From a virus: a DNA stretch of 64,000 bases. The DNA lies in the IMG/VR virus record IMGVR_UViG_3300046002_005110, positions 16,943 through 80,942 of that record; one strand, given 5' to 3'. Of this stretch, positions 2,631-62,050 are shown piece by piece. A program made the position numbers and the translations under genes. Under the pieces are notes generated by a model, which was not told where the DNA came from, did not search any database, and saw nothing but the letters and a program-made list of their open reading frames with translations. Within the stretch, counting starts at the first letter, position 1, and the number at the start of each line of letters is the position of its first letter.

Positions 2631-5039
2631 TTAGTTTAGCTTTGCTTCTAAAAACTTCTTTTGATTTTCCATACTAGTATCAGATAAATCTATCAACGTA
2701 TCCATTTTTTCAAATAAATTATTAAACATTTCAGTAATTTTATTAGATGAATTAGTCATCATTGATCCACTACCCAATGATGTTTTGCTTACACTTGACC
2801 CATCACCAATCTTTGATACAGATTCATCTCCGTGTAATTCTGCCAAATAACCACTTTCAGGTCCACTGAAAATACCACCTGTTCTTGCAGTTAAAGATCC
2901 AAGTTCATATCTTCCAGCACTAAAATGCATTGCATCAGATTTATTTGGCCAATCAAGACCCCATCCTAATCCCATTGATTTAGCTGCTTGTCTTGTTCCC
3001 TCTGGCATGTCAGTTATTCTTTGAGATCCCATTGGATTTTCAGCAGGATTTATATCGATTGCAGCGCCTCTAGAGTGATAACTGGGTGTGTTAGTTCCTG
3101 CTATATTTCTATCAGCATACCCACCTAAACTTTTTATCTTATATCCCGAAGCATCAAACCAATCAATTAATCCTTGAAAGTTTTTAGCAAATTCAGTTGC
3201 AACTGATGTACTTTGTCCGGATTTACTTCTAATAGTCGATAATTTTACTCCTCCCGCTTCACCTGCTGATTTTGGTTCTTCGCCAGCTCCAGGTAATCTT
3301 GCACGAGTGGCATTTTCACCACCGGACACTGATGAAGGTGCAAATACACCAACTCCAGCATCTTTTTCCGCCTGTATTCTTTTAGCAGTTGCGATTGCTA
3401 ATTGTTTTTGAGCCTCTTCTAGATTCTTTTTTGCTAGATACACATCACCAGACATAACACCGAGCTTAGTTGTGATAGAATCTACTAATGATCCTCTTAT
3501 ACCTCGATTTTTTCCAGTTTCACCAGATTCAGCATCTTTTAATTTTTTTCTTGCCTCAGATTCTTTTTCTATTGCCTGTCTTTCAGTCTTTTTTGCCGCC
3601 AAATGAGCAGGTAAATCTTCGCCGGCCATTTCATATAATTTTTCAGTTACAACCTCCAAACCGGTTGCCATGTGTTTCATTATTCCAGTTACAAGTTCAC
3701 TACTGGTCGACATTTGTTCTATGTCTCTTCCTGCCTGTTCTAAAGCCTGTTTGGTATCAGCTAATTTTGCATTTTCACTATCTTTATCTGTTATTATCTG
3801 AGCTTGTTTTGCATTTTGTTCCTCCAACAATTTTTGAGTATCTTTATTTGCATGCATTTCAGCATTTGCTTGTTCAATAGAATACTTTCCACGAACAGTT
3901 GCATCACCATATCGTCTAGTTTCTTCAAGCGCCGCTTTTCTAGCAATTCCACTCAATCTATTAATTTCATTACGAGCGACACCAGCTTTCATTTCTCCAT
4001 TTCTAAATTTTGTTAATATTGACGTTACCGCAGATGCTTGATCTCCAAAACTAGCCAACATCTCGGCTGCTTTTGCTCTGCCTGCATCACCAGTAGTCAG
4101 ATATTCTCTCATTCCTTCTTCTGTTAATTTTCCAGATTGAGCGGCTGTTAAATCAAGAAAAGTTTCATAAGTGTCTTTAAGTTTACCAGGAACATCAACC
4201 ATACCTGCTCGCCAAGCCGCATCATTCATTCTGGCTTCTCTTGCGGTTTGTATATCTTTCTTACTTGCGCCAGTAATCTTACTAATAGTATCCAGTTCTT
4301 TTATATAGTTAACTGAACCTTGAATCATTTCATCTATGGTTTTCTTTTGTCCACGACCAGTACGCATCTGTTGATTAAGATAACTCAGTTGCATCTCAGA
4401 AAATTCTTCACTACTAATACCAAGTTTTTGAAAATCTCGTCTTACATCATAACTACTAACTGATATTCTTTCAAATTCTTTTCTACCTTTTGTTGCTGAT
4501 CCTGCAAATAATGCTAAATTTTTACTGTGTTTTGTTAAAATATTTTCGGACTGAGAATAATTAAGTTGCATGGCACGTGCAGCATGTTTCATATCAGTAA
4601 AAGAAGTTACAACTCCACTATCACTTAATTTTTCGAAAGTTTGATATGATTTGTCAAAACTCTCAACCATGAAAGAAGCAACTTCACCAACTCCTTCCGA
4701 AAATCCTTTGAGTGCTTTACCAACAAAAGGTAATCCACCCATAACTTTGCCTATGACTTTGAAACCCAATTTCATGGCATTTGTCAATGGTGCAAAACTT
4801 CCTGAGCTATTAGATAAACTTTTAGCAAATCCTGTTAGACCAGAAATAGATCCAGAAATAGCCTTGGATAATTGCTTCTCAGATTCATTAAGTTCTTTTT
4901 CAATATCAGCACTGGTTTTTAACGAATTATCAAATATGTTATTACTTCTAGTAGTTCTTGCAATACTAGATTCAAAACTTTTTAGTTGTTTTGTGGTTTG
5001 TTCCAATTGATTTCGTAATTCATCTATTTCATTTGACAT
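2631..5039 (-). CDS. Tape-measure-like protein with C-terminal M15-family peptidoglycan peptidase
   Basis: Long helical A/G/K/E-rich body; SYHSRGAAIDIN...WGLDW...DAMHFS zinc peptidase motifs; GGIFSGP..GY..LHGDE tail motif; paralog of 5055-7841. Confidence 0.75.
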   Translation of the reverse strand: MSNEIDELRNQLEQTTKQLKSFESSIARTTRSNNIFDNSLKTSADIEKELNESEKQLSKAISGSISGLTGFAKSLSNSSGSFAPLTNAMKLGFKVIGKVMGGLPFVGKALKGFSEGVGEVASFMVESFDKSYQTFEKLSDSGVVTSFTDMKHAARAMQLNYSQSENILTKHSKNLALFAGSATKGRKEFERISVSSYDVRRDFQKLGISSEEFSEMQLSYLNQQMRTGRGQKKTIDEMIQGSVNYIKELDTISKITGASKKDIQTAREARMNDAAWRAGMVDVPGKLKDTYETFLDLTAAQSGKLTEEGMREYLTTGDAGRAKAAEMLASFGDQASAVTSILTKFRNGEMKAGVARNEINRLSGIARKAALEETRRYGDATVRGKYSIEQANAEMHANKDTQKLLEEQNAKQAQIITDKDSENAKLADTKQALEQAGRDIEQMSTSSELVTGIMKHMATGLEVVTEKLYEMAGEDLPAHLAAKKTERQAIEKESEARKKLKDAESGETGKNRGIRGSLVDSITTKLGVMSGDVYLAKKNLEEAQKQLAIATAKRIQAEKDAGVGVFAPSSVSGGENATRARLPGAGEEPKSAGEAGGVKLSTIRSKSGQSTSVATEFAKNFQGLIDWFDASGYKIKSLGGYADRNIAGTNTPSYHSRGAAIDINPAENPMGSQRITDMPEGTRQAAKSMGLGWGLDWPNKSDAMHFSAGRYELGSLTARTGGIFSGPESGYLAELHGDESVSKIGDGSSVSKTSLGSGSMMTNSSNKITEMFNNLFEKMDTLIDLSDTSMENQKKFLEAKLN

Positions 5040-7850: not shown

Positions 7851-7886
7851 CTAAATAGTGAAGACAGTCCACTTACTATTATTTAG
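7851..7886. promoter_or_regulatory. Pair of face-to-face putative late promoters (CTAAATA + at 7851-7857; CTAAATA - at 7880-7886)
   Basis: Both motifs lie in the 79-nt gap between divergent genes, each pointing at its gene. Confidence 0.55.
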
Positions 7887-7920
7887 CCTATTATTTTTAG
7901 CACTTACAAGGAAATCAATT

Positions 7921-8748
7921 ATGTCAGATCAAAACCCATTAAAACAGTATTTTCGTAGACCAAGTATCTATTTCAAACTTCCTAGTATGGGAAAATTTTA
8001 TTCATCTGGAATTGTCAATATTCCAGAAAACGGTGAATTGCCAGTTTATCCAATGACTGCCGTAGATGAAATGACCGTTAGAACTCCAGACGGATTATTC
8101 AACGGTGCAGCAGTTGTTGATTTGATCAAAAGTTGCGTACCAAATATTATTGATCCATGGAAATTAAATAATATTGATTTGGATGCTACTATTATTGCTA
8201 TTAAAGCCGCGGCCGGAGATGGAACACTGGCAATTTCATCACAATGTCCGTCATGTAGTGAAGAAACAGAATACAATATTAACTTAATGCCAATATTAGC
8301 TAATATGAAAAATGTTGATTATGATTCTGTTATGAAAGTTAGAGATTTAGTAATAAAATTCAGACCACTAACATATATAGAAACAAATCAAAATGGATTA
8401 GATCAGTTTAATATTCAAAAAACATTGGCCACTCTTGAAGATTATCAAGATGATGAACAAAAAAGTCAAGTTATGACTAATACTTTAAAACGATTAGGTG
8501 ATTTAGTTGTTAGTATTATTGCATCAACTATTGAATCAATATCTACACCAGAATCAGTAGTAACAGATAAAAATTACATTATTGAGTTTTTAAATAATTG
8601 TGATAAAAATACAAATAATGCCATTAAAGATCGTAGTATACAATTACGTGAACAAAATGAATTGGATCCTATTGATATTAAATGTCCTAGCTGTGCACAT
8701 GAATACAAACAAAAAATTGTATTGAACGTCACTGATTTTTTCGAATAA
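7921..8748 (+). CDS. gp26: Baseplate hub assembly chaperone (T4 gp26-like)
   Basis: NPLKQYFRRP..Y..LPS.G, PMTA.DE, DLD...IAI..A, CPSC twice, ends DFFE; start moved to ATG 7921 (SD AAGGA 7908-7912). Confidence 0.75.
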   Translation: MSDQNPLKQYFRRPSIYFKLPSMGKFYSSGIVNIPENGELPVYPMTAVDEMTVRTPDGLFNGAAVVDLIKSCVPNIIDPWKLNNIDLDATIIAIKAAAGDGTLAISSQCPSCSEETEYNINLMPILANMKNVDYDSVMKVRDLVIKFRPLTYIETNQNGLDQFNIQKTLATLEDYQDDEQKSQVMTNTLKRLGDLVVSIIASTIESISTPESVVTDKNYIIEFLNNCDKNTNNAIKDRSIQLREQNELDPIDIKCPSCAHEYKQKIVLNVTDFFE

Positions 8749-8972
8749 GGCTTCTTCATCTCAATCCGGATGAGATCAAGAAGCTGACAGATGACATGGA
8801 AAAAGAAAGAATGAATATTCCGTTTAATGCTCAAAAACTAGCTTGGTTTATGAGAGGAGGAATTGATTTCAATGACATAATGAACATGAGTCATGCAGAA
8901 ATTGACAATATTAATAAAATCATTGATGAACATATGGAGACTACTAAGAAAACCAAATTACCTTTCTTCTAA
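8742..8972 (+). CDS. gp51-like C-terminal extension, probably reached by -1 frameshift from gp26-like gene (alternative ATG 8796)
   Basis: Open -1 frame RIRLLHLNPDEIKKLTDDMEKERMNIPFNAQKLAWFMRGGIDFNDIMNMSHAEIDNINKIIDEHMETTKKTKLPFF* directly after slippery T TTT TTC (8736-8742). Confidence 0.65.
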   Translation, partial: RIRLLHLNPDEIKKLTDDMEKERMNIPFNAQKLAWFMRGGIDFNDIMNMSHAEIDNINKIIDEHMETTKKTKLPFF

Positions 8973-8979
8973 TATTAAT

Positions 8980-9158
8980 AGATGAACTACGTTCATCTGC
9001 CAGTGACCTATCGGTACACTGGCATTTTTATATCTTGAGATTATATATGTGAAAAGATGTTTTGTGTCACTAAAAGCGAGTGATAACGAGCGATGTGACA
9101 CAATACGGGTTGTTGAGCGTAGCGATACAACCCATTACTTAGATATGCATATAAGTAA
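8980..9158. repeat. Cluster of five inverted repeats; candidate replication origin; hairpin 8998-9024 plus T run may also terminate gp26 transcript
   Basis: Stems 8980-87/8991-98, 8998-9005/9017-24, 9062-70/9095-9103, 9107-13/9127-33, 9135-41/9152-58. Confidence 0.6.
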
Positions 9159-9189
9159 AAACGTTTAAACTCACTGAATAAAGTACAAT

Positions 9190-9480
9190 CACCCCCCTCT
9201 TTTTCTTCTATTAAACCAGATATTTTCTCTGGGGGAAGAACGTTCGCCGAAGCACCGATAAAACCCATAACTATTTGTCATTGATCTGTTGACGCAGTAA
9301 AATTCCTTCCGAGAGGATGGTTACGTTTAGAGACTAGTTGCGCTTAGTATTGTCCGCGCTTTGGTCTTACTCCACAGACAGTGGTCGGATTGTCTGTAAC
9401 GTTTCTAGTTAGATTAGACAGGTAATTGTTTGACCTGTGGGCTACATGATGTTTCATGTGCCTTGCTCTGTTTAGTGTAG
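9190..9480. ncRNA. Candidate structured non-coding RNA, family unrecognised
   Basis: 44% GC over 9241-9480 (counted) versus AT-rich flanks, several short stems, no credible ORF. Confidence 0.35.
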
Positions 9481-9481
9481 T

Positions 9482-10078
9482 TTAGATTGTGTTTAAAGTG
9501 TTGTTAGACTTGGTGTCAGTTGAGTATTTTGTAGATTGTTGATTAGATGAGAGTAGTTTGACCAATGATCCATATCTCTGAAAAAATGGTTCAAACGAGT
9601 ATATATTCCAAGCACCATGTACTCTAGTTGAATAAGTTACATGATTGAGATCCATCCACAAACCAGTTTGTTGTTGCTGATGATGTAGAATAGATGTCTT
9701 GACTTGTACTGCTACATAGCGACCTTTACGATTAAACTTCATTAATAAGATATTGAAGTCACCAGGATCACTAGCGGTCATCAATTGATCTATCCACGTT
9801 TCCAATTGCTTAGATTCGTCAAATAGTTGATGAAATTGAAAATCAGCATAAAACTTACATTCACAATTAAACAATGGAAAACTTTGACCAGGAATAATAT
9901 CCCCTTTAAAGTTTCTAATTTGTCCCTCATGTAATATTTGTTTACGATGACTATTAGTACCACCAGTATAAGCACCAGAACCAGGTGCTCTCATGAAATT
10001 TTCTCCATATAACTCTGATAGAAATTTGGAAACTTCACGTTCAAACCCACTTCCTTTGTTTTTACTTTTACTTGGCAT
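9482..10078 (-). CDS. Holliday junction resolvase (Hjc-like PD-(D/E)xK nuclease)
   Basis: SKNKGSGFERE, RAPGSGA, GDII, ECKFY motifs. Confidence 0.8.
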   Translation of the reverse strand: MPSKSKNKGSGFEREVSKFLSELYGENFMRAPGSGAYTGGTNSHRKQILHEGQIRNFKGDIIPGQSFPLFNCECKFYADFQFHQLFDESKQLETWIDQLMTASDPGDFNILLMKFNRKGRYVAVQVKTSILHHQQQQTGLWMDLNHVTYSTRVHGAWNIYSFEPFFQRYGSLVKLLSSNQQSTKYSTDTKSNNTLNTI

Positions 10079-10115: not shown

Positions 10116-10355
10116 TTATGTCCAGTCAGTTATAAACTGATCTTTGACTTCTACATTGGGAAATAACCAACGTGATACAAAATCAGTTTGGTGTTCTGCC
10201 GTACAATTATGATCAGTCAACCATGATTCAATATCTTTCCAATTTGGTCCAACATGAACAATGTTGACGATTAATTCATTATCAGTATTAAAATTTATAA
10301 CATATAAATTTCGTGATAACTTACTTATTTTAATTTTTTCATAATTTATTTTCAT
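10116..10355 (-). CDS. Hypothetical protein
   Basis: 79 aa, ATGA overlap with gp46 stop. Confidence 0.65.
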   Translation of the reverse strand: MKINYEKIKISKLSRNLYVINFNTDNELIVNIVHVGPNWKDIESWLTDHNCTAEHQTDFVSRWLFPNVEVKDQFITDWT

Positions 10356-12439
10356 ACCTGAGTCTCCATGGTAGTTTCATATGATGTGAATCCGCCCTCT
10401 TTAATAACTTTTAGAACACTGGATACACGATTTGTTAGTTCATCTCTGTGTGAGACAAGCCATACTGATTTGTTACGTCTACGTGACATATCTTTTAGTA
10501 GAGCAATACTATTTTCAACTCCAATAGTATCTAAACCATTATCAATCAACTCATCAACAAATAATACATTGATAGGACTATATAGTGATTCATATACATC
10601 TCTAAATGAAAAAGATAGCCCAAGGATCAGTCTATTACGCTCACCACGACTTAGATTATCAAAGTCTAGCTCACGACCTAGCTCAGTGATTTCAACTGTT
10701 AAATCATTCTGAAATACAACTGTGTGTGGTAACCCCATGGCATCCAAATAGAAAGACAGACGACTGTTCAAATAAGTTAAATTTTGTTCAATAATCTTTT
10801 TACGAACGAAAGATTTTTTGTTTGTCAACAAATCTAACAAGTATTCTTGATGTTGCATGACTCTTGTTAGTTGATTGATATGATCAAATGATACAGTTTG
10901 AATGGCTTCACGTTCCATTTCGGCGATTTGATCTATATATGGATCAGTTTCATCATGTTTATTGGCAATTTGATCCAATAATGAACTAACTCTAGATGAA
11001 TGTTTAATTGCCTGATCTTCTGTATCATAATGAGTTACAGGTAACTCACCACATACAATCTCGTCAGCACTAATATCAATTATCTGTAGATCGTATGGGT
11101 CTTGTTCCTGACGTTTGTTCTCAATTTCTATTTGTAAATTCAATACAGTATAACCATGTTTAATGGCATCACTTTCATTCTTATAATGTGTTACTGGCGT
11201 AATATTTATAACAATCACCGAATCATTAAGTAATTCAAGTTGACTGTTAAGATCAAATATTCTGACTAACGATAAATCCAATGATTCATTCTTTAATTTT
11301 AAGACTGATTCATGATTATGATCATGAAAATCTTGTCCACATGCATAACATTTGTTTTCTTTTAGAGTTTTTATTTCATTTTCTATCTTCTCAGAGTTTT
11401 TGGTTTCTTTATCTAGTTCAAGTTTAACTCTAACAATATCTTTTTTTATAGTATTCTGATCAACAACTTGTTGATTGTATACGGCTAAGTCTTTATGAGC
11501 CTGCAATTCAGCATCAATATTAATTGAATTGAGTTTCTCAAGTTTTTCACTCAATGATTTGATATCATTGGATCGTGATTGTTTCCAACTTGTTTGTCTA
11601 GCGACTAAACTATCATAACGATTTTTCTTTTCTAGACAATCATTATAAATGGATAGGTCTTTGTGTGACTTGAGTTCTAGATTAATGTCAATCTTACTCA
11701 ACTCATCATATTCGTTAACTAGTTTAGTTAAATCTTCATCATGTTTTGTTTTCCATAAACGTTGACGACGTTTGAGATTCTCAATCTGTTCACCAATACG
11801 TTTATTGGCTTCTTCAAGCGCACGTATACGATACTCTTCCTGTTGAATATCATCTTTGGTCTGTTTGTTCAGTATCTTAATGGCATCAGCTTTTTCAGAT
11901 AAGATAGTAACACCCAATAACTGTTCAATGATAACACGTTGATCATTGGCTTTAAGTGATAGAAATGGTTCGTTGTAAGTATTCAGACCAACAATGTGTC
12001 TGAACATATCACTACTCATGTGTAAGACCTTTTCAATAGCGTCCTGAGTTTCACGACTGTCACCTTGACTGTCATTGGTCTCTTCACTAGCCATTTCTTG
12101 ATCATTTACATAAAATTTCAAAAATGTAGGTTTACGTCCACGTTCAATTCGGTATTCAATATCATCTACTGAGAATGATAGTGTTACAACCATGGCTTTA
12201 CCATTGGTTCTATTTATAAGATTGTCTTTTTTGATGTTGTTGATACCACCACCAAAAAGAGCATAAGATAATCCTTGCAAAATACTAGTTTTACCGGTAC
12301 CATTTTTAGCCCCATCACCACCTAAATCTAGATTTTCACCTAGAATTAACGTTAGGTCTTGATTGTTGAAATCGACTGTTTGACTAACAGCGCCAATAGA
12401 TAGAAAGTTCTTAAGAGTTAAAATACCAAGTGTAATCAT
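10352..12439 (-). CDS. gp46: Recombination endonuclease ATPase subunit (gp46/SbcC/Rad50)
   Basis: KNFLSIG, Walker A NGTGKTS, zinc hook CYAC, signature LSRGE, Walker B LFVDE, VSH. Confidence 0.95.
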   Translation of the reverse strand: MITLGILTLKNFLSIGAVSQTVDFNNQDLTLILGENLDLGGDGAKNGTGKTSILQGLSYALFGGGINNIKKDNLINRTNGKAMVVTLSFSVDDIEYRIERGRKPTFLKFYVNDQEMASEETNDSQGDSRETQDAIEKVLHMSSDMFRHIVGLNTYNEPFLSLKANDQRVIIEQLLGVTILSEKADAIKILNKQTKDDIQQEEYRIRALEEANKRIGEQIENLKRRQRLWKTKHDEDLTKLVNEYDELSKIDINLELKSHKDLSIYNDCLEKKNRYDSLVARQTSWKQSRSNDIKSLSEKLEKLNSINIDAELQAHKDLAVYNQQVVDQNTIKKDIVRVKLELDKETKNSEKIENEIKTLKENKCYACGQDFHDHNHESVLKLKNESLDLSLVRIFDLNSQLELLNDSVIVINITPVTHYKNESDAIKHGYTVLNLQIEIENKRQEQDPYDLQIIDISADEIVCGELPVTHYDTEDQAIKHSSRVSSLLDQIANKHDETDPYIDQIAEMEREAIQTVSFDHINQLTRVMQHQEYLLDLLTNKKSFVRKKIIEQNLTYLNSRLSFYLDAMGLPHTVVFQNDLTVEITELGRELDFDNLSRGERNRLILGLSFSFRDVYESLYSPINVLFVDELIDNGLDTIGVENSIALLKDMSRRRNKSVWLVSHRDELTNRVSSVLKVIKEGGFTSYETTMETQV

Positions 12440-13452
12440 ATGTTCCTATAAATATCCAACAATAACTTCTTGTCAAATGTTCCTTGTTCCAAACTTTCAA
12501 TTTGTGTTTGAATAATTGTATCCACGCTTTCAAATTGAGTATCTGAATTATCTGGATTATTGTCTGTGAAATCTCGTTTGATAGGAATCAATGTAAGTTC
12601 TCTAAGATGATGTTCTGGCATGAGTTTTTCACGAATGAAACTTGCCTCTTCAAACGAGATATCAATATCTAGATTGATTCTAACATAACTATCAGACAAT
12701 AACAAGCCACTTGGATCATCCAATACATCACTTAAATTATATACACGATACTTAGGGGCATTAGGCCAACCAAAATACATGGGTTCTTTGTCCCATTCTA
12801 ATACCATCATGCCACGTTTATCATCACCAGCATCGGCATAGTTATGAGGGAAGGCATTTCCAATATAGGTAATGTTATTTTTCTTTTGACGTTTGTGAAA
12901 ATGACCACTAAATACGGCTTCATATCCATTTAAATGTTCACTTTGAATTTCTTTATAATCTGGCATTTGAATCATGGCATTCATAAAGAAATTTGGAAGT
13001 TCTAGATGAGAGAATACATATTTCCCTTTCATCTTTTTAAGACGTTTCCATTCATCTCCAACGATCCACGGAATGATAGTTACATCTCCCTGTGTGAACC
13101 ATTCATCTATTATAATGACATTTGGAAGATGTTTTGCCCATTCTACTGAATGAGTATCTCTTTTATCTCTATAAAACATATCGTGATTACCCACGATAAA
13201 GTATATTTTATCAAATGCCGCACTTAACTTTTCAAGACCTCTAAGACTAAACTGTAGAGTTTGAATATTAATAGCGGCACGATTATGATGCCAATCTCCT
13301 AGAAAGAAACAAGTTTCACAGTTTTGTTTTTTAGCAGTTTCAATAAACCAATCAACGAAATTTGTACAATCCGTATTATGTTGTATTGAATTGTTTTTCA
13401 AACCCCAATGAATATCAGTGAATGTTGCTGCTTTTTTGAATAAATTTGTCAT
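12436..13452 (-). CDS. gp47: Recombination endonuclease nuclease subunit (gp47/SbcD/Mre11)
   Basis: DIHWG, LGDWHH, VGNHD, SGHFH metallophosphoesterase motifs; adjacent to gp46. Confidence 0.95.
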   Translation of the reverse strand: MTNLFKKAATFTDIHWGLKNNSIQHNTDCTNFVDWFIETAKKQNCETCFFLGDWHHNRAAINIQTLQFSLRGLEKLSAAFDKIYFIVGNHDMFYRDKRDTHSVEWAKHLPNVIIIDEWFTQGDVTIIPWIVGDEWKRLKKMKGKYVFSHLELPNFFMNAMIQMPDYKEIQSEHLNGYEAVFSGHFHKRQKKNNITYIGNAFPHNYADAGDDKRGMMVLEWDKEPMYFGWPNAPKYRVYNLSDVLDDPSGLLLSDSYVRINLDIDISFEEASFIREKLMPEHHLRELTLIPIKRDFTDNNPDNSDTQFESVDTIIQTQIESLEQGTFDKKLLLDIYRNI

Positions 13453-27212: not shown

Positions 27213-30200
27213 ATGGCAACAAAAATTCGGTCACTTGATTTTCTTCCTGAAGTTTTTAGAACTGACAGTAATGCTCAGTTTCTTGCCGCAACATTAGATC
27301 AGTTGGTACAACAACCTGATCTACGTAGAGTTGAAGGATTTATTGGTCAAAAATATGGCTATTCTATTAACCCAACTGATCGTTATGTAGTTGAACCATC
27401 AAAAATCCGCTATGATTATCAATTGAATCCAAGTGTTGTATTCTTAAAAACTGATACTCAAACTGCAAAAGATTTTATTAATTATCCTGGTATGTTAAAT
27501 GCTTTACAAAATAATGGGGCAATTACCGATAATAATAATAGATTATTTGAAAGTGAATATTATAGTTGGGATAGTTTTGCTGATCTAGATAAGATTGTTA
27601 ACTATAGTCAATATTATTGGTTACCATATGGTCCAGATGCCGTAACTGTATCAACCAACACAATTTATCTATCAGACAATTATATTGTATCCTACAGTGA
27701 TACTGGATATACAATTAATGATTCAGTACAAAAAAATCCATCTATAACATTGTTACGTGGTGGTACATATACATTTGAAGTAAATCAATCATCACAATTC
27801 TGGATTCAAGGTGTTCCAGGAACTTCTGGATATGGTGCAAGTTCTAATACTAGTACTAGAGATGTATTAGGAGTATTAAATAATGGAGATTCCATTGGCA
27901 CTGTTACGTTTGAAGTTCCATTAAAAGATGCTCAATCACAATATGATTTGCCCGGAAACAATACAGTTGATATTGTTTCTACACTAACATATGCAGAAAT
28001 TAACGGTCAAACATCGACATCAATTGGAAATATTGATGGTGTAACTCAGTTAAATGGTAGAACATTAATGTTCTATGATAATGGTGAATCAAGTTCACAA
28101 ATTAATTTTTATTCAATATCAGTAAATTCAATAACTGATATCGTTACATTAACATTAAGTACTGGAATTCCAGATTCTCAAAAAATTACAGTAACTAGCG
28201 GTACTACATATGTTGGTAGAACATTCTATCGTGATGGTACCGGTACAATTCAATTGATACCATATCTTTCGGCAGTATTAGATACATTATATTATCAAGA
28301 TGGGTCAAATCCACTTAATGTTGGTGTTATTAATTTAATAGAAAATAATACTACTAATAGTATTAACATTGATCAAATTTTAGGTAAGACAAATTATACA
28401 AGTCCAAATGGTGTTACATTTATCAATGGTCTTAAAGTTATATTTGAAGGATCTACAGTCCCATCAACATATCAAAATAATGAATATTATGTTGAAGGTG
28501 TAGGTACTGCAATCAATCTATTATTAGTTAATGATTTTCGTAGTGTAGAAAGCGATGATCCAGGATCATATTATCCTTGGGATTATTATAATTGGGACGA
28601 TAAAGAATGGGATCAATCAAATGAGGTACCATTATATCCGGATTATATAACAATCAATAGAAATAGTCGTGATTTAAATGCCTGGTCTAGAAGTAATCGT
28701 TGGTTTAATATTCAAGTTATTAATGCCACTATCGCTTATAATGGTACATTAACATTAATATCTGGAAATACTAGTACTCGTGCTCAACGTCCTATTATTG
28801 AATTTTATGGGAATCTTGGTCTTTATAATAGTGGAACAAAATCTTTAGGTTTCGTTTCATTATTTGATAATACAACAACTGATGCCTTTACTCAAATAGT
28901 TGGACAATCATCATATACTATTGATGGTCAACCATTAGTTTCTGGTCAAACAATTATTTTTAATCATGATACTAATAATTTAGTTCGTCAAAACATATAT
29001 GAAGTTTCTTTTGCACCAGTTGGTACAGGAAATTCAAATGTAATTGCACTTAATATTGTAGAAACTGCACAAGATAAAAATCAAGTTACTATCATATCTG
29101 GTACATTATGGAAATCAACAAGTTGGAGATTTAATTCTGTAGATTCTAGATGGATTCAATGTCAACAAAAATCAACAGTTAATCAGGCCCCATTATTTAA
29201 CATATATGATATAAATGACATATCACTTAGTGATCAATTATACTATAATGGTTCAACATTTGCGGGAACAAAATTATTTTCGTACACTGTTGGTACAGGA
29301 CCAAATGATCCAATATTAGGTTTTCCAATTAGTTATTCAAGCTCGGTTAGTATTGGTGACATTAATTTCACTGTCAATCTAAATGAAGATACATTTAGCT
29401 ATCAACAAAACGATAATATTATTGAATCAAACATTAATATTGGTTATGTATATGACTATATCACTGCTGATATACCAACTAAAAAAACTGGATGGGTAAC
29501 CGCATATACTGAAAGTTCTCAATATCAAGTATTTCAATTTACAGTTACTCAACCAACACAAAGTTCCTTTCAATGTGATGTGTTAGTAAAAACTGATTCA
29601 ATTGTTGATCCACATCATGTATATGTCAATGATGTTGAACTGAGTGATGATTCTGAATATACTTTTACTACTAATAGTTTTAATAATACAACAACCGTTA
29701 CATTGACAACTGCGGCAGTCAGTGGTGATAAAATTACCATTACATTGCTTAGTGATCAAGTTAGTAAAACTGGGTATTATGAAATTCCAAGTAATTTACA
29801 AAATAATCCATTCAATTCAAATATTACCACAGTTAACGTTGGTGATATTAAAAATCAATATGATTCAATAGTTCAAAATACGTTTGGCGTAATTGGACCA
29901 GTATTTGGTCCTAATAATGTTTATAACCTAGGAAACTTAAACAGATACGGTACGGCAATTATTCAAAATAGTGCCAGTTTGATATTACCTGGTGTATTTT
30001 TACGTAAACCTGGATATAATATATTTGAAGCATTACAATTCAACAGTGATCAATATACAAATTTTAAAACATTGTTGATTAATTTAACTGATCAAAACGA
30101 TTTTACAGTATATACCACTCCATCTACAATGTTGGATACAATTCTTTATCAAATTTCAAGTACCAGAAACAGTACAAATGCATTCTTCTGGAGTGACATG

Positions 30201-33200
30201 TTATATACTGGTAGTCCATATAGAACTAATAGTTATCCATTTAATGTTACATTATCTACTATTACTTTACCAACGTATAGAACATATGATTTTACATCAG
30301 CCAACTATTATGGGTTGGGTGTTTATATTACTACAACAGTTAATGGTCAGACAGTAACTAATCAATTAATACGTGGTGTGGATTATATTGTTAGTGATAT
30401 TAGTCCAAATTTAACAATAACATATGATATTGTTGTTGGTGATACTATTACAATTAATGAATATAATCAAACATATGGAACATATTGTCCCAATACACCA
30501 ACTAAATTAGGATTATACCCAAGTTTTATTCCGAGTGTTATTTTAGACAATACTTATACTACACCAACCTATTTTATTTTAGGACACGATGGTAGTTATA
30601 CAAAACTTTATGGTGATTATATTGATGAAGAATTATCTGATTTTCGTGATAAAGTTTTATTAGAATTTGAAACTAGAATTTATAATAACTTAAAAGTTGT
30701 TGGTGATATACCATTACCAGCTGATGAAGTTATTCCAGGACAATTTAGAACCACTGAATATTCACAGAGTGAAATTTTAGATATATATAGAACCAATTTC
30801 TTAAAATGGGTTGGTTTAAATCGTATTGATTATAAAACACAACAATATAATAGATCAAATCAGTTTTCATATAACTACAATCAAAGTACAAACATACTTA
30901 ACAGTGAAATATTAAAACAAGGTTATTGGAGAGGTGTATATAATTGGTTCTATGATACTAGTAATCCAGCAGATGCCCCATGGGAAATGTTAGGATTGAC
31001 CAGTGAACCAAGTTGGTGGACTGATAGATATGGTGCCGCCCCATATACTAGTGATAATACATATATGTGGCAAGAAATTAGTGAAGGTTATGTATGGAAC
31101 AATGGTGATAGTTATATTAATCCATTGAAAGTTAGACCAGAATTATTAAGAGTATTGCCAGTAAATTCGGCCGGAACATTACAATCACCATTACCAACTG
31201 TAGTTGGTAACTATGATTCATTTACATTTGATCGTAATTGGATTGTTGGCGATCAAGGACCGGCTGAAACTTCATATCTACGTAGTAGTTCATATCCATT
31301 TGATTTAATGCGTATATTGGCATTAACTAAACCAGCAAAATTCTTTAACTTAAATGTTGATCGTGACTTGTACAAATATAATACTGAATTCAATCAATAT
31401 TTGTATAATGATCGTTATCATTTAAATCCACAAGATATTATAGTATATGGCAATGGTGTAAGTAAAGCTAGTTATATCAATTGGGTAGTTGATTACATTA
31501 ATCAACGTGGTGTTGATGGTACAACTGAAGTTACTACTACATTAAAAAATCTAGATGTCAGATTAACATATAATCTAGCTGGATTTAGTAGTAAAAATTA
31601 CTTGAAATTTTTGATTGAAAAATCAACACCAAATACTCAAAATACAACATTATTAATTCCTGACAATAGTTATAGCGTCTTGTTGTACGACAATGTATCA
31701 GAAGATAAAATTGTATATAGTTCAGTTATTGTACAACGTACTAGTGATGGTTATACAGTTTGGGGTAATAGTCAAAGTGATCCATTTTTTAATATGGCTG
31801 TGCCCAAGGCCGGATTTACACAAACATTAACGGTGAATAATCTTTCAGTTACAGTTAATAATGAATTTTATACAGACAAAATCACTACAATTCCATATGG
31901 TAATTTATATTATACTGTTCAGGGAGTTAGTGAATTTCTTAAAGCATATGGTCAATATCTAGTAGATCAAGGTATGATTTTTGGTTATGTAATTGATACT
32001 ATTACATATAATTGGGATCAAATGATTCGTGAGTTTTTGCATTGGGCAGAACAAAGTTGGGAAGTTGGTAGTACTATTAATTTAAATCCATCTGCTAAAA
32101 TTGCTACTGTTAATAGACCTGGATTAGTGGTTCAGCCATTGACAATTCAACAAGATAATTTTATTTTAAATCAAAATCTAATACCATTACAAAGTCAAAA
32201 TGCTAGTATTGTAAGAGAAAATGAAAGTTTTACTGTTGGTGTATTAACTGATGGGGATAGTATTGCTCTTACAAATCTTAATTTATCTAGTATGGAACAT
32301 GCAGTGGTGTTTGATAATTATACCGTATTCAATGATACAATTTATGATTTAGTTACTGGATTACGTCAACAAAGATTATTATTACAGGGTTACAAATCTG
32401 GTGAATGGAATGGTTATGTTAATGCCAGCGGATTTATTATTAATGAAGATAATATTCAAGAATGGTTACCAAACATTAAGTATGCCAGTGGAAAAATTGT
32501 AACTTATAAAAATAAATATTGGGTTGCTAATCAATTGATTCAACCACAATCAGAATTCTTTGATGAACAATGGACTCAAACAACATACGATAAAATTAAA
32601 ACTGGATTATTACCTAATCCTAGCACTAATGCATATGAAAGTTTGTATTATTATGACAGTACTAGAGCAAACTTTGAACTAGATGCCGATCTATTATCAT
32701 TTAGTCTAATCGGTTATAGACCAAGACAATATCTCGCTGATGCAGAATTAAGCGATATTACTCAAATTGGTGTTTATAAAAACATCATTAAAGAAAAAGG
32801 AACCAACTTAATAGCAAATGCTTTTAAGAGTGCAAATTTGGCTCAAGGTAAAATTGATTATAATGTAAAAGAAAATTGGGCAGTTAAAACTAGTGTATTT
32901 GGTAGTGTATCTAACAGTAATTTTGTTGAATGTTTATTGATTCAGAATGAATTAACTGGTAATCCAACACTATTGGGATTCTCAGATAATGGGTCTGTAA
33001 GCGGTGTTCAACAAACAGTAATGATGAATGAAATCATTAACTGGAATATGCCACCAATTTCTGCAAATTTCTTACCGCCATTTAATGATGTTTATTCATA
33101 TGAGCGTGGTTTACCCAGCGCCGGATATGTCAATCTAAATGATGTAAAATTTAAAGCCTTTGAACTTACTGATTTAAACAATACATTTGACACAACTAAC

Positions 33201-36200
33201 ATAGATACATTGTATCGTAATGATAATATTTGGATTGCCAAATATCGTGGAAGTTGGAATGTATTTACTCCACAAACAGTCAATACACAAGTAATAAGTA
33301 TTATTAATAATTTAAATAATACAATTACTGTTAACTTTGGAAAAAATCCAAATTTGGCAAAATATGATCCAATCGCTATTGTTAATTTTGACTCCAGAAT
33401 AAATGGTTATTACGAAGTTTTAGCAGTGAATTCATTAACCAGTGTAATTATTGCAAAAGTATTAGATACTGCCGTATTACAATTACAAGGTAATGGTTTA
33501 GCTTTTAAATTAGTATCTAGAAGATTTACTCAAGCAAGTGATCAAGTATACAGTACAGTATTTAATAGTGAATACTATAATAAAAAATCTTGGATTGATA
33601 GAGATGTAGACAATCAATGGGCTGTATGGTCATGTGGTCCAAACTTTACTGAGATTAATATTGATTCTTCTGAATTAAATTTACAAGATTTTGGTAGTAG
33701 TGTCGCTTACAGTACAGAAATAGGATATGTCGGTGCTAGTGCAATTGATGGAACAATCTATCGTTATTATACTGACAGTACTACTAGTCAATCAATAACT
33801 CAAACTATATCTCAGACCAATTCAACATTTGGTACAGCAATGGTTGCAGTAGGTGATTATTTGTATGTTAGTGATGAACTTAATAATCTTGTTTATGTAT
33901 ATCTAGTAATTTATCCAAGTAAATATATTACTTTATATACGACTATTAGTCAAGAAACTACTGGACAAATAACAGTTAGTGAAGATAGACAGTGGTTATA
34001 TATTTCAAACGTTACTAATAAAACAATAGCGGTTTGGGCATTGATGTCCAATGGTAATTATGATTATGTTAGTACTATTACTGGTCCAAGTACGGCAATC
34101 GGATTTGGAACCTCAATCGCTACTAGTATAGATGGAGTTAAATTAATTGTAGGTGCCCCATTAGAAAGTTTAGTAACTAGTGAATCAACTCAATTGACTG
34201 CATCTGGCGCTGTTTATATATATACTAGAAGTGTACAAAGATTCATGGCTAATGGAATCAGTGATACCTATACAGTTAATGAAACTATTCCTAATTCTAT
34301 AGCTGATGTATTAATTGATGATGTATTAACTAGTGATGTAATTGTCTATTCCGATGGCAGAATTATATTTAATATAATACCAGTCTATGGTAGTATTATT
34401 GAAGTAAGTTATGGTGAAATGAATCTCGTTACTAAATTATTGAGTAGTAATCCAATAGTTGGTGGTAATTTTGGTACTAGTGTATCTACTAACAAATATG
34501 GTGCTCAACTAGTAATTGGATGTCCAAGTGAATTACAGACTGTAAACAATGTATCAAACGTACAGGGCGCAGTCTATCGTTTTACTAATGGCGGACAACA
34601 ATATGGATCTATAGTTGGATCAGTTAGTGGGTTAGTTAGTGGATATTTTTTCATTGATGGATTTAAAGTAAGTTATTCTGGAACTGCTAGTGAAATAGCT
34701 CAATCGATTAATACTCAAACTCCAACCAATATTATAGCTGCCGCTAGTGGTAATATACTTCAAATTGGGGTTATAAACAATACAGTAGAAACTATTAATA
34801 ATATTATTGATATTACTGGACCAGAATCTAATCTTGCTGATTTGGGATTAACATTGTATGTTAATACACAAGTAATGGTTAATCCAAATTTACCAACAAT
34901 TGGAAGTTTTGGAACTGTAGTATCTATGGGAACTCGCGACAGTTTGGTAGTCAGTGACCCAACTGCTACAGTATATGCTGAAACAACATTTGATTATAAT
35001 ACAGTTGACCCAACAGTCTGTAATCCTATTATATCAATTAATAATTTTACTATTTTTGATCATGGAGCTACAGCATTTATTGACACATTTGCAAACACTG
35101 GTGTAGTATATGAATTTGATTATCTACCGGCGGCTGATGAAAGTATTATAAATCCTGGAAAATATGTATTTGGTCAATATATTCAAAGTATAGATAGAAC
35201 TGGAATAGCAAACACTCCAAAATTTGGAACCAGTGTAGTTGATAATGATGGTGTAATAGTTGTGGGTGCTCCAAATTGGTACAGTACTGGTACTGGAAGA
35301 ATTTTTGGATATGTTAATTATTGTCAAACTAGTAGTTGGTATATAGATAAGAAACCATTACCAATGGTCTCTGTTGAACGATTAAATAATATTTCTATCT
35401 ATGATACTATTAGTAATAATACATTAGATTATCTAGATTATATTGATCCAATACAAGGAAAATTATTAGGTGCAGTTGAAACAAACTTAGATTATATAAG
35501 TTCAACTGATCCAGCCACATATTCTGATGGAATCGTGTGGAGTTTTGAACATATTGGTTCTACGTGGCTTGATACAACAAGTATTCGAATGTTGAATTAT
35601 AATCAACCAAGTGCTACATATAACGCTAGTAATTGGGGTAAGGCATTTCCAGGAAGTACGGCCGACATATACACTTGGGTAGGTAGTTCATTTCCTCCAA
35701 TTCAATATAATGGTAGTGGATATGTAGTTGATTTTAATAGTTATACTACGATTCAAAGTTTAGATCGCTCAACCAATGCAATTGTTGTTGATTATTTCTT
35801 CTGGGTTAAGAATTATAATATTATACCTCCAGGAAAAACATTAAGTCCGTTGACTTTAAGTCAATATATACTTAACCCACTTAATAGTGGAATTAGTTTC
35901 TTGGCAGCAATTACTACTAACATTGTTGGATTATTTAATTGTGAAAGTAGTATCAATTCTTCATCTAGTGCTTTACATATTGGTTATCGTATTGGTAACA
36001 CATTAGATCAAAAACATGAAAGTTGGACATTGATTCAAGAAAATAATGCAACTGATTTCTTAACTGGATTTCCAACAGAAAGTCAACAAGATCCAATTGG
36101 ATTATATGCAAAATATCTAGATAGTTTTGCTGGACAAAATCGTCTTGGACTATATATACCAAATTCAAAGTTGCCAATTTTGACTCGTTATGGTATTGAT

Positions 36201-39200
36201 TATTCACAAAGTATGTTTATAGATCGCCCATTGGCTTTACAAAATTATGTTAACTATGCCAATCAAGTTCTAATTAAATTCCCTATTGCCGAAACTCGTA
36301 GTTTATATTTCTTAAACAAAGTTGGAGTTGGATATGATACAAGAGATTATTGGACATATACTGATTGGTGGGCCACTGGATATAGTAGTAGTACAAAAAT
36401 TGTATTAGAAGTAAACACAGTTACTGATCTACAAACACTTCAGCCAAATCAAATACTTCCAGGAACAGAACAAATTGTTATTGGATTAAAAGATGGAATT
36501 ATTGTCAAAGTAAAAGCCAATTCACAGGGTAATAGCGAAGTGTGGACCTGGTATGAGGCTACTGGATGGGATAGAATTGGTTTACAAAACGGAACAATTC
36601 AATTATCAGATTCATTGTATAATACTCCAGTTAATTGGGATATTGGTGGATTTGATATTGGATTATATGATGATACAGTATATGAAGAAACTTATTGGAT
36701 CATTCGTTGGTTGAATGAAGAGGCTTATATAGAAGATTTGTTGATTGAACGTAATAATAGTTTGATATTAATGTTTAATTATATTCAAAGTGAATCACTA
36801 GAACAACAAAATTATCTAACATGGCTTAATAAAACAAGTTTGATTGATGTTACTCATACTGTTCGTGAATTGTTACCATACAAGAAATTTCAAAGAGATA
36901 ATCAAGAATTCTTAAGCGGATATTTGAATGAGATCAAGCCATTTCATGTTAAGATTAAAGATTTCTTATTTGTATATCCTGGACAAGATACATTCTTAGG
37001 AGATGTAACTGACTTTGATTTACCTGCAAAATATGTACCAAGTATAGGACAATTTGAAACTCCACAATTAGTATATACTACACCAAATTTATATTCCCCA
37101 GAATATTTACCTACTAGTACAGTATGGCAAGATCCAGAATATACACAGTGGTTTGAAAATTATGGTTTGAATATTACTAATGAACGCGGACTTTATAATC
37201 TAACATCATTATCGGCCTATATTACTTCAAGTTCCACAATTATTCCGGTTAAAAATACATATGGAATGCCTGATGCTGGATTTATATATATTGGTGATGA
37301 GAAAATTTCTTATAGTAATGTCGATAAGTTACAAAATATATTGACAGATATTCAACGTGGTATTGACTCAACTCCAACTGATCATATGCCAAATGCAACA
37401 GTTAGTGCCATATTGCCAGCTGTAATTGTATTAGATAAAGCTCGCGGATATTCAGAACCACCAGTAATTACTGTAATCAATAATAGTAATTATCCAAATC
37501 CAAGAACTGTTGCTCAGTTAGTTCCGATTATGATAAATGAATCATTGTTGGGAGTTCAGGTAATTAATTCAGGTTCAGGTTATGCTACTCAACCAATAAT
37601 TGAAATTGAAAGTAGTTCAATATTCTCTACATTTGTCAGTACTGACGTTAATACGGTATTTAATACTATCACTATAATAAATCATAGTTTTATTACTGGT
37701 GATTCAATTAAGTATACAATTGGATTGAATACAGTATCTCCAACAGGTTTGATCAATAACAATTACTATTATGTTAGAGTAATTGATGTTAATACTATTG
37801 CTCTTTATTATTCAGTTAAGGGTGCTTATAACATTGACAAAACTAGTTTGATGGATTATGAACGAGTTTCATTAGAAACACAAGGTTCTGGATCTGAAAA
37901 TACATTAGCGGTTACTGCCAGAGCAGCAATATTAACCTCAAGTCAGCCAGTTAGAGAATTAATGACTACTATTAAATTTGATAGAACAAGTTATGGTAGT
38001 TTAATCACTGAATGGAATAGTGGGCAAATTTATGCAGGAGAATTTACTGATATTGGTAAACTTGCAAGTTCAACATTGTTAACATCATCAAGTAGTCCAT
38101 GGGAATATTTGTCATGGACTGGAACAAATTGGGACGCTGATTTATTAGCATCAGCTCAAGGTGCATCATTTCCGATAGTACAAGTGAGAAACTCATATGC
38201 ATATGATGGTGCAGTACTTGTAGAATTAAATTATGGGTATACACCCGTAACTCCTGGACAATTGAATGGGCAGAAGATTATTGCTTATGAAGTGAGTTCT
38301 ACTGAATGGACTAATCCGATTAGTTACTATGTCAAAGTTATGACTACGACATTAGTAGAAATATATTATGATCCATTATTTAACTTTCCAGTGAAAATTG
38401 CCAACTTTAATTATACCTCAAATGATGTATTATTTTTAGAAGAGCCATTTACATTTAGTAAAAGTTTAGTAACATATGCTGGAAAATTATATCAATGTAT
38501 AGTTAGTAATAATGATACAATATTTGATTATGATAAGTGGGAACAAATTTACAGTAATAATTCAATATTGAACGCGGCCGATAGAATTGCTGCCTTTTAT
38601 GAGCCAACTGCCAACATGACTGGACGTGATCTTAGACAGTTAATGAGTGGTGTGGTTTATCCAAATGCTACTACAATTGGCGCCCCATTTAATTATAATG
38701 ACGGTCAGTTGTATGATTCTGTTAATTTTGAATATTCATCATATGATGTTAATTCAACGGCCGAACTTGATACAAATCTTCAATCTCCTGATTTTAACTA
38801 TAATCAATTGACTAACCCAACTACATATGATGTTCAGGGTGGATCATTCAATGAAGGATATGGACCAGAAGAATTGATTCCTGGTCTGGTAACTGATTTC
38901 TTACAATTTAATGTTACTACAAATCCAGATACATTAGGCCCAGGAAATTATTTGAATTTTAGAATTCAAGTTGATCAATTTGGTCAGAATTCAGTTTATA
39001 ATCCCAATACATATCCATATGTAACATATGAATATGTCACTTCAGTTTATAATACCAATCCATATACTCAAACATATTTGACACAAGATTTTGTCAGTAC
39101 TAATAGTATAAGCGATGTATTACATGTTAACGATGCTAGTAAATTAGTAAGTACGTTACAAGAAATAGTAACTACTGATAGTGATGGTGTGGCATATATA

Positions 39201-58516: not shown

Positions 58517-58521
58517 AACTT

Positions 58522-62047: not shown

Positions 62048-62050
62048 TTA

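What the first reader, a model, noticed from the sequence alone, without database searches (positions are those of the whole stretch)
8980..9158. Mirror-symmetric GATA/GTA-loop hairpin pairs on opposite strands: candidate bidirectional replication origin
Seen: read 5'->3' on the minus strand, a GATA-loop hairpin (8998-9024) is followed by a C-GTA-G triloop hairpin (8980-8998). Read on the plus strand, a GATA-loop hairpin (9062-9103, inner GC-GA-GT-GATA-AC-GA-GC) is followed by a GTA-triloop hairpin (9107-9133, inner GA-GC-GTA-GC-GA). The two sets point away from an AT-rich 37-nt spacer (9025-9061). Known: GNA triloops and tandem sheared G.A pairs are strand-specific ssDNA structures found in primosome-assembly/ssi sites and N4 hairpin promoters. 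Inference: strand-specific primase/helicase loading sites of an origin, located where transcription converges next to the recombination genes.
Basis: partly seen in the sequence, partly recalled or inferred. Interest (0 to 1): 0.75.

Follow-up and report, generated by a model that had tools for sequence, protein, structure and literature searches.

The report
Back-to-back capped hairpin terminators, phage
The four mirror-image hairpins are real and conserved in a lake T4-like giant phage, but they look like two facing transcription stop signals with unusual, strand-specific DNA mini-hairpin caps, placed beside an undescribed conserved non-coding block, rather than a replication origin.

Summary
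H1 (8980-8998), H2 (8998-9024), H3 (9059-9106) and H4 (9107-9133) fold far better than shuffles. They recur in five diverged lineages with compensatory stem changes. Their G(N)NA caps stay on the stated strands: minus for H1/H2, plus for H3/H4.

The origin reading has no direct support:
- No iterons were found.
- The origin-like skew minimum lies about 5 kb away, at a divergent junction.
- The "AT-rich spacer" consists of two facing U-tracts, T5 after H2 on the plus strand and TCTTTTC after H3 on the minus strand.

The best reading is therefore two convergent "hairpin pair plus U-tract" stop modules. They separate the late baseplate-hub genes from the early recombination genes. A late-promoter-like box follows, then an ultraconserved roughly 200-nt non-coding block, probably a plus-strand RNA.

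Some features are not explained by termination alone:
- The cap (GAGCGNAGCGA in H4) is the most conserved part of each hairpin.
- It lies on the template strand of the transcript being stopped.
- Capped hairpins occur only at this locus in 81-367 kb genomes.

The same cap tops variable palindromes in well over 100 unrelated viral contigs. This scan has noted the cap class before on other DNA. A DNA-level role is not excluded.

The parts
7858..8748 (+). Baseplate hub gene (Pfam T4_baseplate, PHROG baseplate hub); first gene of the short plus-strand late unit
8796..8972 (+). Conserved 58-codon ORF ending the plus-strand unit. Earlier notes call it gp51-like and reached by a frameshift; I did not test that.
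   Evidence: Conserved by tblastn in over 80 loci; for the earlier notes
8980..8998 (.). H1: 8-bp hairpin with loop TAC on the plus strand, which reads C-GTA-G on the minus strand
   Evidence: Nearly the same sequence occurs in distant relatives.
8998..9024 (+). H2: 7+3 bp hairpin with a conserved one-base bulge and loop TATC (C-GATA-G on the minus strand). With the T5 tract it forms a canonical plus-strand intrinsic terminator.
   Evidence: (-16.7 kcal/mol); the T tract follows H2 in all five lineages
9025..9031 (+). U-tract (TTTTTAT) of the plus-strand terminator
9051..9057 (-). U-tract (TCTTTTC on the minus strand) that follows H3 in the minus direction
   Evidence: the equivalent T-rich tract is present in L212, L215, L064 and L087
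9059..9106 (-). H3: 9-12 bp outer stem. The apex on the plus strand is GC-GA-GT-GATA-AC-GA-GC here and GAGCG(A/C)AGCGA in three relatives. It is terminator-like for minus-strand transcripts.
9107..9133 (.). H4: 7-bp stem with cap GAGCGTAGCGA (9115-9125) on the plus strand. The cap is invariant except for the loop N in all five lineages.
9150..9157 (+). Late-promoter-like box TATAAGTA, 20-25 nt after the H4 cap in all five lineages
9270..9475 (+). Ultraconserved non-coding block ending in a covarying hairpin (9440-9462) plus a U-rich tract. It is a candidate plus-strand non-coding RNA.
   Evidence: a metatranscriptome contig covers 9233-9508; no Rfam match
9482..10078 (-). PDDEXK nuclease gene (PHROG name: RusA-like resolvase); last gene of the minus-strand recombination unit (SbcC/SbcD-like genes at 10352-13452)

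Best explanation
The cluster is the stop and insulation zone between two convergent transcription units of a freshwater T4-like giant phage. It is built from two oppositely oriented modules, each a pair of hairpins followed by a U-tract.

Plus-strand transcripts of the late baseplate-hub genes meet H1, then H2, then UUUUU. This is a canonical intrinsic terminator. Minus-strand transcripts from the PDDEXK and SbcCD-like genes cross the non-coding block, then meet H4, then H3, then a UCUUUUC tract. The 'AT-rich spacer' is simply the two U-tracts facing each other. To the right of H4, a late-promoter-like box and an ultraconserved non-coding block follow, so H3/H4 also sit directly upstream of a probable plus-strand RNA gene.

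Shown here:
- the hairpins, their covariation and the conserved strand of the caps
- the U-tracts
- the gene layout
- the restriction of capped hairpins to this locus

Inferred:
- that transcripts actually end at these points
- that the box is a working promoter

Not explained: why each apex carries a conserved G(N)NA cap, often bracketed by tandem G.A, on the DNA strand that is the template of the stopped transcript. That feature suggests an added, still unknown reader of the cap, either a protein or a DNA-level process.
For: Gene layout:
- The plus unit ends at 8972 and the minus unit at 9482.
- This is the largest gap between the ORFs of 100 aa or more. The other two convergent junctions have gaps of only 4-6 nt.

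Terminator features:
- H2 is -16.7 kcal/mol and is followed by T5.
- A T tract follows H2 in all five lineages, and a T-rich tract follows H3 on the minus strand in all five.
- In the wider clade, the orthologous H1 plus H2-type pair is followed by ATTTTTTACGG on the plus strand. The minus-strand side is not T-rich: mean 2.5 T in 9 nt, and 0 of 31 loci reach 5 T. The module is therefore directional, with the cap on the template strand.

Structure is under selection:
- Stems covary; 8 of 27 pairs changed on both sides.
- Strain variants in lake metagenomes change loops and the spacer, not the stems.

Right-hand neighbours:
- A late-promoter-like box lies 20-25 nt after the H4 cap in five lineages.
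- The same motif class sits before many start codons of this genome.
Against: - No transcript ends were observed. The only RNA data are contigs, which cannot show ends or strand.
- H3 has a 24-nt apical region and only -12.3 kcal/mol as minus-strand RNA, and its U-tract starts 3 nt after the stem. That is weak for an intrinsic terminator.
- The H2-type hairpin of the wider clade is a poor hairpin as plus-strand RNA: a 6-bp A/U stem with a UC/UC internal loop.
- A plain terminator does not need an apex that is more conserved than its stem.
- H1 is almost sequence-identical across phages whose proteins are only about 50% identical.
- The exact cap occurs only here in relatives' 109-265 kb contigs. 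One further exact match sits inside a gene without a hairpin, and a complete 367-kb wider-clade genome has no exact match. That pattern fits a single-copy cis site better than a generic terminator.
Confidence: 0.55

Rival explanations
1. Bidirectional replication origin. The cap-bearing strands are the lagging-strand templates of forks that leave the spacer, and the mini-hairpins resist the single-strand binding protein and direct primase or helicase loading.
For: - The geometry fits: caps are on the minus strand to the left and the plus strand to the right of an AT-rich spacer.
- GCGNAGC and GCGNNAGC mini-hairpins occur at the phage G4 complementary-strand origin, at RSF1010 ssiA and in N4 promoters (review PMC13037366).
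- Capped hairpins are single-copy in genomes of 81-367 kb.
- The non-coding gap is conserved across the whole clade.
- A promoter-like box and a conserved RNA-like block lie beside it, which recalls R-loop origins.
Against: - There are no iterons or other direct repeats.
- The spacer is only 37 nt and is accounted for by the two U-tracts.
- The origin-like skew minimum in the window is at about 14-15 kb, at a divergent junction. This site is convergent.
- Known T4 origins are a promoter plus an unwinding element, without hairpins, and lie near transcriptional divergence.
- The wider clade has only the left (minus-strand) module, so the mirror symmetry is specific to one subclade.
Confidence: 0.1
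2. Hairpin-headed promoter or regulatory element. H3/H4 act in cis on the late-promoter-like box and the downstream non-coding RNA gene, either as a binding site for a cap-specific protein or as an extruded DNA structure that helps activate late transcription.
For: - The spacing from the H4 cap to the box is fixed at 20-25 nt in five lineages, although the sequence between them is otherwise poorly conserved.
- The cap is invariant while the stems vary.
- A downstream block more than 90% conserved is covered by a metatranscriptome contig.
- Earlier notes from this scan describe mini-hairpins at fixed distances before promoter boxes in other lake phages. This is a lead only.
Against: - Promoter activity is untested.
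- L215 keeps H3/H4 and a box but lacks the conserved block.
- The left module H1/H2 has no such box in this subclade.
- In the wider clade, the conserved box TTCATTTAT near H1 fits a 3'-UTR element as well as it fits a promoter.
Confidence: 0.15
3. Fixed copies of a selfish or neutral class of mini-hairpin-capped palindromes (REP-like), which settle behind genes and were retained here because they are harmless or useful as terminators.
For: - The same cap, GAGCGNAGCGA, tops palindromes with unrelated stems in more than 119 viral contigs of every G+C content, giant-virus bins included.
- Earlier notes from this scan report the cap as a dispersed, gained-and-lost element in giant viruses and archaea.
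- H3/H4 are an extra, inverted module found only in this subclade.
Against: - They are not dispersed here. Capped hairpins are confined to one locus per genome.
- The position is orthologous in lineages whose proteins are 53-70% identical, and the stems covary, which means the structure is under selection.
- No presence/absence polymorphism appears among strain variants.
Confidence: 0.1
4. Programmed substrate for the neighbouring nucleases. The hairpins or cruciforms are cut by the SbcCD-like complex or by the PDDEXK (RusA-like) nuclease encoded next door, making a break that seeds recombination-dependent replication.
For: The adjacent genes are named SbcC-like and SbcD-like 'palindrome specific endonuclease' and 'RusA-like resolvase' in PHROGs. 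The linkage of the gap to these genes is conserved clade-wide.
Against: The only evidence is adjacency. In the L010-L026 group the PDDEXK gene is inverted. Sheared-G.A mini-hairpins are reported to resist nucleases.
Confidence: 0.05

Closest known systems
Rho-independent (intrinsic) terminators, including facing or bidirectional pairs between convergent genes
   Same: A stem-loop directly followed by a U-tract on the strand of the incoming transcript, placed after the last gene of each unit, with covarying stems.
   Different: - Each module has two hairpins.
- The apex is conserved in sequence and is strand-asymmetric, with the stable cap on the template strand.
- H3 has a very large apical region.
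- Capped hairpins are unique to this locus rather than used at many gene ends.
DNA mini-hairpins GCGNAGC and GCGNNAGC (Hirao and colleagues; review PMC13037366)
   Same: H4 contains GCGTAGC. Relatives have GCGAAGC, GCGCAGC and GCGATAGC. H1 and H2 have C-GNA-G and C-GNNA-G closing motifs. The asymmetry between the two strands is as described for these motifs.
   Different: Here the mini-hairpin caps a longer covarying stem and is bracketed by tandem G.A. It sits in a large double-stranded DNA phage at a transcription boundary, not at a single-strand origin. Stability was not measured.
RSF1010 oriV ssiA/ssiB and the phage G4 complementary-strand origin (single-strand initiation signals)
   Same: Strand-specific hairpins with mini-hairpin motifs on opposite strands, near an AT-rich stretch.
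   Different: Those replicons use dedicated primases (RepB', DnaG) on exposed single strands, and RSF1010 has iterons. Here there are no iterons, the context is that of a T4-type replisome, and U-tracts give a simpler reading.
PeSL promoter-early stem-loop cassettes of T4-type phages (PMC2839356, PMC4122927)
   Same: A composite of a terminator-like stem-loop and a promoter-like box in a T4-type phage.
   Different: PeSLs are multi-copy, lie in hyperplastic regions, carry sigma-70 early promoters and have simple stem-loops. This site is single-copy, lies between core genes, has a late-type box and carries capped hairpins.

Membership tests
Intrinsic terminator | Stable RNA stem-loop on the transcript's strand | tested here: met
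   H2 plus strand -16.7 kcal/mol; H1 -7.3; H3 minus strand -12.3 with a 24-nt apical region; H4 minus strand -6.0
Intrinsic terminator | U-tract within a few bases after the stem | tested here: met
   TTTTT lies directly after H2. TCTTTTC lies 3 nt after the extended H3 stem on the minus strand. Equivalent tracts occur in all five lineages.
Intrinsic terminator | Transcript 3' ends at the U-tract | not testable with these tools
   Only assembled contigs of one RNA run were available, and they cannot show ends or strand.
Single-strand initiation (ssi) / primosome assembly site | Strand-specific hairpin with a mini-hairpin motif, conserved in relatives | tested here: met
   Caps are conserved on fixed strands and the stems covary.
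Single-strand initiation (ssi) / primosome assembly site | Part of an origin with initiator repeats or an unwinding region | tested here: not met
   No iterons. The 37-nt spacer is two U-tracts.
Single-strand initiation (ssi) / primosome assembly site | Priming activity on the folded strand | not testable with these tools
   Needs primase assays.
T4-type R-loop origin (oriF/oriG kind) | Lies at a shift of strand compositional bias or at transcriptional divergence | tested here: not met
   The site is convergent. The skew minimum is at about 14-15 kb. The criterion comes from PMC3016281.
T4-type R-loop origin (oriF/oriG kind) | Promoter whose transcript primes leading-strand synthesis | tested here: inconclusive
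   A late-type box (9150-9157) and a sigma-70-like site (9275-9303) exist, but neither their activity nor R-loop formation is known.
N4-type hairpin promoter | Phage encodes a virion RNA polymerase that reads template-strand hairpins | tested here: not met
   None was found among the 15 proteins of the window that I scanned. The 4137-aa protein is fibre-like, not a polymerase. Most ORFs of the window, and the 17 kb of the record outside it, were not scanned.
REP-like dispersed mini-hairpin repeats | Many copies per genome, gained and lost between close strains | tested here: not met
   One locus per genome in contigs of 81-367 kb. It is retained at the orthologous site in five lineages.
PeSL cassette | Multi-copy early-promoter plus stem-loop composite in hyperplastic regions | tested here: not met
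   The site is single-copy, has a late-type box and lies between core genes.

The most novel reading that the evidence does not exclude
The caps are DNA-level signals. The idea is that extra-stable mini-hairpins form on the template strand, or on the lagging-strand template, at one unique site per genome. There they would be read by the phage's replication, recombination or late-transcription machinery. Possible roles are priming or helicase-loading sites of an origin coupled to the neighbouring promoter and conserved RNA, a break site for the adjacent SbcCD-like nuclease, or a template-strand component of termination. Any of these would be a new kind of cis element for T4-like phages, and it would give a function to a cap motif that is spread across many unrelated viruses.
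Probability: 0.15. Interest if true: 0.75.

Novelty: new variant of a known kind. Interest (0 to 1): 0.5.

Why it matters
If the plain reading holds, this is a clean natural example of a facing double terminator whose hairpins carry a conserved, strand-specific mini-hairpin cap. That feature is not part of the textbook terminator. The same cap tops palindromes in many unrelated viruses.

Here it can be studied at one single-copy, conserved site with clear predictions: which strand matters, and whether flipping the cap changes termination or promoter use. The neighbouring ultraconserved non-coding block, together with the different conserved block at the same position in the wider clade, points to undescribed non-coding RNA genes in freshwater T4-like giant phages.

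Tried and rejected
**Database searches with no result**
- Rfam at gathering and permissive thresholds on the window and six relatives: no match.
- tRNA and tmRNA scan: none.
- Megablast against deposited phages: no match.
- Metagenome scan for more close relatives: one useful hit (L292), which stops before the gap.

**Tests on the general class of cap-bearing palindromes**
- Gene orientation around them showed no clear bias, and my ORF calls are noisy in GC-rich contigs.
- A-runs or T-runs beside them showed no enrichment. The U-tract link is therefore specific to this phage clade.

**Tests within this genome**
- I scanned for other terminators, to ask whether template-strand G(N)NA loops are a general rule. 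Only four perfect-stem candidates turned up, and no other C-GNA-G hairpin between genes, which is too few to test.
- RNA contigs of run X23 do not cover 8840-9232. No conclusion is drawn from that.
- I looked for a promoter in the 37-nt spacer and found nothing convincing (and by eye).
- The late-like motif on the minus strand at 9136-9142 is not conserved in relatives, so I dropped it.

**Other ideas dropped**
- A profile of the wider clade's 300-nt block finds nothing in the window subclade.
- The wider clade's block is not protein-coding; all six frames have many stops.
- GNRA-type RNA tetraloops do not fit. The four-base caps seen are GATA, GGTA, GACA, GTCA, GTTA and GCTA, with a pyrimidine at the third position.

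Full report
**What the window is.** The window is part of an 80.9-kb viral contig estimated at 23% complete. It carries a T4-type portal, baseplate hub and fibre genes. About 20 lake-water metagenome runs hold the stretch. The finding lies in a 510-nt non-coding gap. This is the largest gap between the ORFs of 100 aa or more in the window.
- To the left, on the plus strand, are a baseplate-hub gene (7858-8748) and a conserved 58-codon ORF (8796-8972).
- To the right, on the minus strand, are a PDDEXK nuclease gene (9482-10078) and SbcC/SbcD-like genes, the gp46/47 kind.
- The other two convergent junctions of the window have gaps of only 4-6 nt.

**The observation.** The 208-nt stretch folds with z about -5.7 on both strands, and no shuffle does as well. 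H1, H2, H3 and H4 are each significant alone.

**Relatives.** Protein-anchored and motif-anchored scans of viral contigs gave four further lineages with the same H1-H2-spacer-H3-H4 layout: L212 (the same lineage as L002), L215 (the same contig as L007), L064 and L087. Their flanking proteins are 53-96% identical to the window's. Each folds into the four hairpins on its own.
- The consensus fold of H1, H2 and H4 has 27 pairs, 8 with changes on both sides.
- The H3 outer stems are almost entirely different in sequence yet still pair.
- The one-base bulge of H2 is kept.
- The caps keep their strand. H1 and H2 read G(N)NA on the minus strand. H3 and H4 read GAGCGNAGCGA, or the GATA variant, on the plus strand. 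The H4 cap is invariant except for its middle base.
- Strain variants in lake metagenomes change loops and the spacer, not the stems.

**What the spacer is.** H2 is followed at once by TTTTT on the plus strand in all five lineages. H3 is followed by a T-rich tract on the minus strand in all five: TCTTTTC here, and TTCTTTTT, TTCTTTTAT and TTTTCTC in relatives. The 37-nt "AT-rich spacer" is these two tracts facing each other. Each side is thus a hairpin pair plus U-tract in the direction of the incoming transcript. This is the signature of facing intrinsic terminators between a late unit and an early/middle unit.

**The wider clade.** Eighty further loci share the synteny and a gap of about 500 nt.
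- About half carry a nearly sequence-identical H1 (AGATGAAC-TTC-GTTCATCT). Its loop reads GAA on the minus strand in 22 of 30.
- H1 is followed immediately by a second hairpin whose minus-strand apex is GA-AC-GAA-GT-GA or GAGCG(N)NAGCGA, and then by ATTTTTTACGG on the plus strand.
- The minus-strand side of this module is not T-rich. None of 31 loci reaches 5 T in 9 nt.

The module is therefore directional. The cap is consistently on the strand that is the template of the stopped transcript. The window's left module (H1/H2) is the ortholog of this module. H3/H4 are an extra, inverted module confined to the window's subclade, so the mirror symmetry is a subclade feature.

**What does not fit a plain terminator.**
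- The apex is more conserved than the stems.
- H1 is sequence-conserved across phages whose proteins are only about 50% identical.
- As RNA on the stopped strand, the capped apexes are poor: UC/UC internal loops, and a 24-nt apical region in H3.
- Capped hairpins are confined to this locus. There is one exact cap in the 80.9-kb contig, and one to two in relatives' contigs of 109-265 kb. One further exact match lies inside a gene without a hairpin. A complete 367-kb wider-clade genome has no exact match.

The cap contains the GCGNAGC or GCGNNAGC DNA mini-hairpin. The literature describes this motif as extraordinarily stable, poorly bound by single-strand binding protein, and present at the G4 origin, RSF1010 ssiA and N4 promoters. 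The four-base caps seen here have a pyrimidine at the third position, so they are not GNRA RNA loops.

**The cap elsewhere.** Two caps within 12-42 nt of each other occur in more than 119 viral contigs of every G+C content, including giant-virus bins. In that general population I found no link to U-tracts or to gene orientation. Earlier notes from this scan describe the same cap as a dispersed, gained-and-lost element in giant viruses and archaea, and at terminator or promoter joints in other phages. I treat these as leads only. I confirmed that the cap is widespread. At this locus, however, it is not dispersed or polymorphic.

**The origin reading.**
- No iterons or other direct repeats are present.
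- The cumulative GC skew follows gene orientation. Its origin-like minimum in the window is at about 14-15 kb, at a divergent junction, whereas this site is convergent.
- The T4 review places active origins near transcriptional divergence and describes promoter-plus-unwinding-element or iteron sites, not hairpins.
- No N4-type virion polymerase was found among the 15 proteins scanned.

The geometry (caps on the would-be lagging-strand templates) and the single-copy nature keep the idea alive, but only at low probability.

**The right half of the gap.**
- A late-promoter-like box, TATAAGTA at 9150-9157, lies 20-25 nt after the H4 cap in all five lineages. It is the only such motif within 75 nt. 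The motif class precedes many start codons in this genome.
- From about 9270 to 9475 the sequence is more than 90% identical between the window, L212, L064 and L087, far above the flanking genes. Its predicted stems hold many G.U pairs in the plus orientation.
- It ends in a hairpin (9440-9462) with five pairs changed on both sides, plus a U-rich tract.
- A metatranscriptome contig covers 9233-9508. This shows presence in an RNA library, not strand or ends.
- L215 keeps the hairpins but lacks this block.

The wider clade has a different conserved block of about 300 nt at the same place (56 of 62 loci). It is non-coding, has strongly covarying stems and has a U.G pair kept in 46 of 48 sequences. 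None of these blocks matches Rfam.

**Verdict.** The most likely function is a pair of facing stop modules that insulate a late unit, an early unit and a probable non-coding RNA gene from each other. The conserved, strand-specific, single-copy caps are a real unexplained feature. The origin interpretation is not supported by any direct evidence and fails its skew test, but it is not excluded.

Noticed in passing
window 9270-9475 (+), with the box at 9150-9157 and the sigma-70-like site at 9275-9303: An ultraconserved non-coding block, more than 90% identical in lineages whose proteins are 53-66% identical. It has G.U-rich predicted stems in the plus orientation and ends in a covarying terminator-like hairpin at 9440-9462. 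It has no Rfam match. A metatranscriptome contig covers it. It is a candidate new phage non-coding RNA.
   Followed up: partly
L216-L291, between the 58-codon ORF and the PDDEXK gene (for example L226:2130-2600): The wider clade (56 of 62 loci) has a different conserved non-coding block of about 300 nt at the same position. It begins GCCGCTTTGAAGCCATGGTAGTGC, has strongly covarying stems (up to 4 pair types per pair) and has a U.G pair kept in 46 of 48 sequences. All frames have stops and there is no Rfam match.
   Followed up: partly
L217-L289, 19-24 nt before the first hairpin (plus strand): The conserved box TTCATTTAT(CA), often within CCGTAACT-TTCATTTATCA, lies between the stop codon and H1 in 35 of 68 distinct loci. 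On the minus strand it reads GATAAATGAA, which is late-promoter-like. It may instead be a 3'-UTR element.
   Followed up: partly
window 8731-8972: The 58-codon ORF is conserved in more than 80 loci. Earlier notes from this scan propose that it is reached by a -1 frameshift from the baseplate-hub gene (gp26/gp51 logic). I did not test this.
   Followed up: no
L010-L013, L016-L023, L026 (about 3300-4000): In this group the PDDEXK gene is inverted, so it is co-directional with the hub gene. The gap of about 700 nt holds yet another conserved non-coding sequence, shared by L010, L016, L018 and L021.
   Followed up: no
window 58516-58522 and 62047-62051: The other two convergent gene junctions of the window have gaps of only 4-6 nt and no room for terminators, in contrast to the 510-nt gap studied here.
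   Followed up: no
window 27213-39626: A 4137-residue protein with only weak FG-GAP and carbohydrate-binding matches. It is probably a giant fibre or adhesin, not a polymerase.
   Followed up: partly
window 10084-10078 region (minus strand): The PDDEXK gene start is preceded by a late-type motif (GATAAGTA, then 6 nt, then ATG), although it sits in the recombination gene unit.
   Followed up: no
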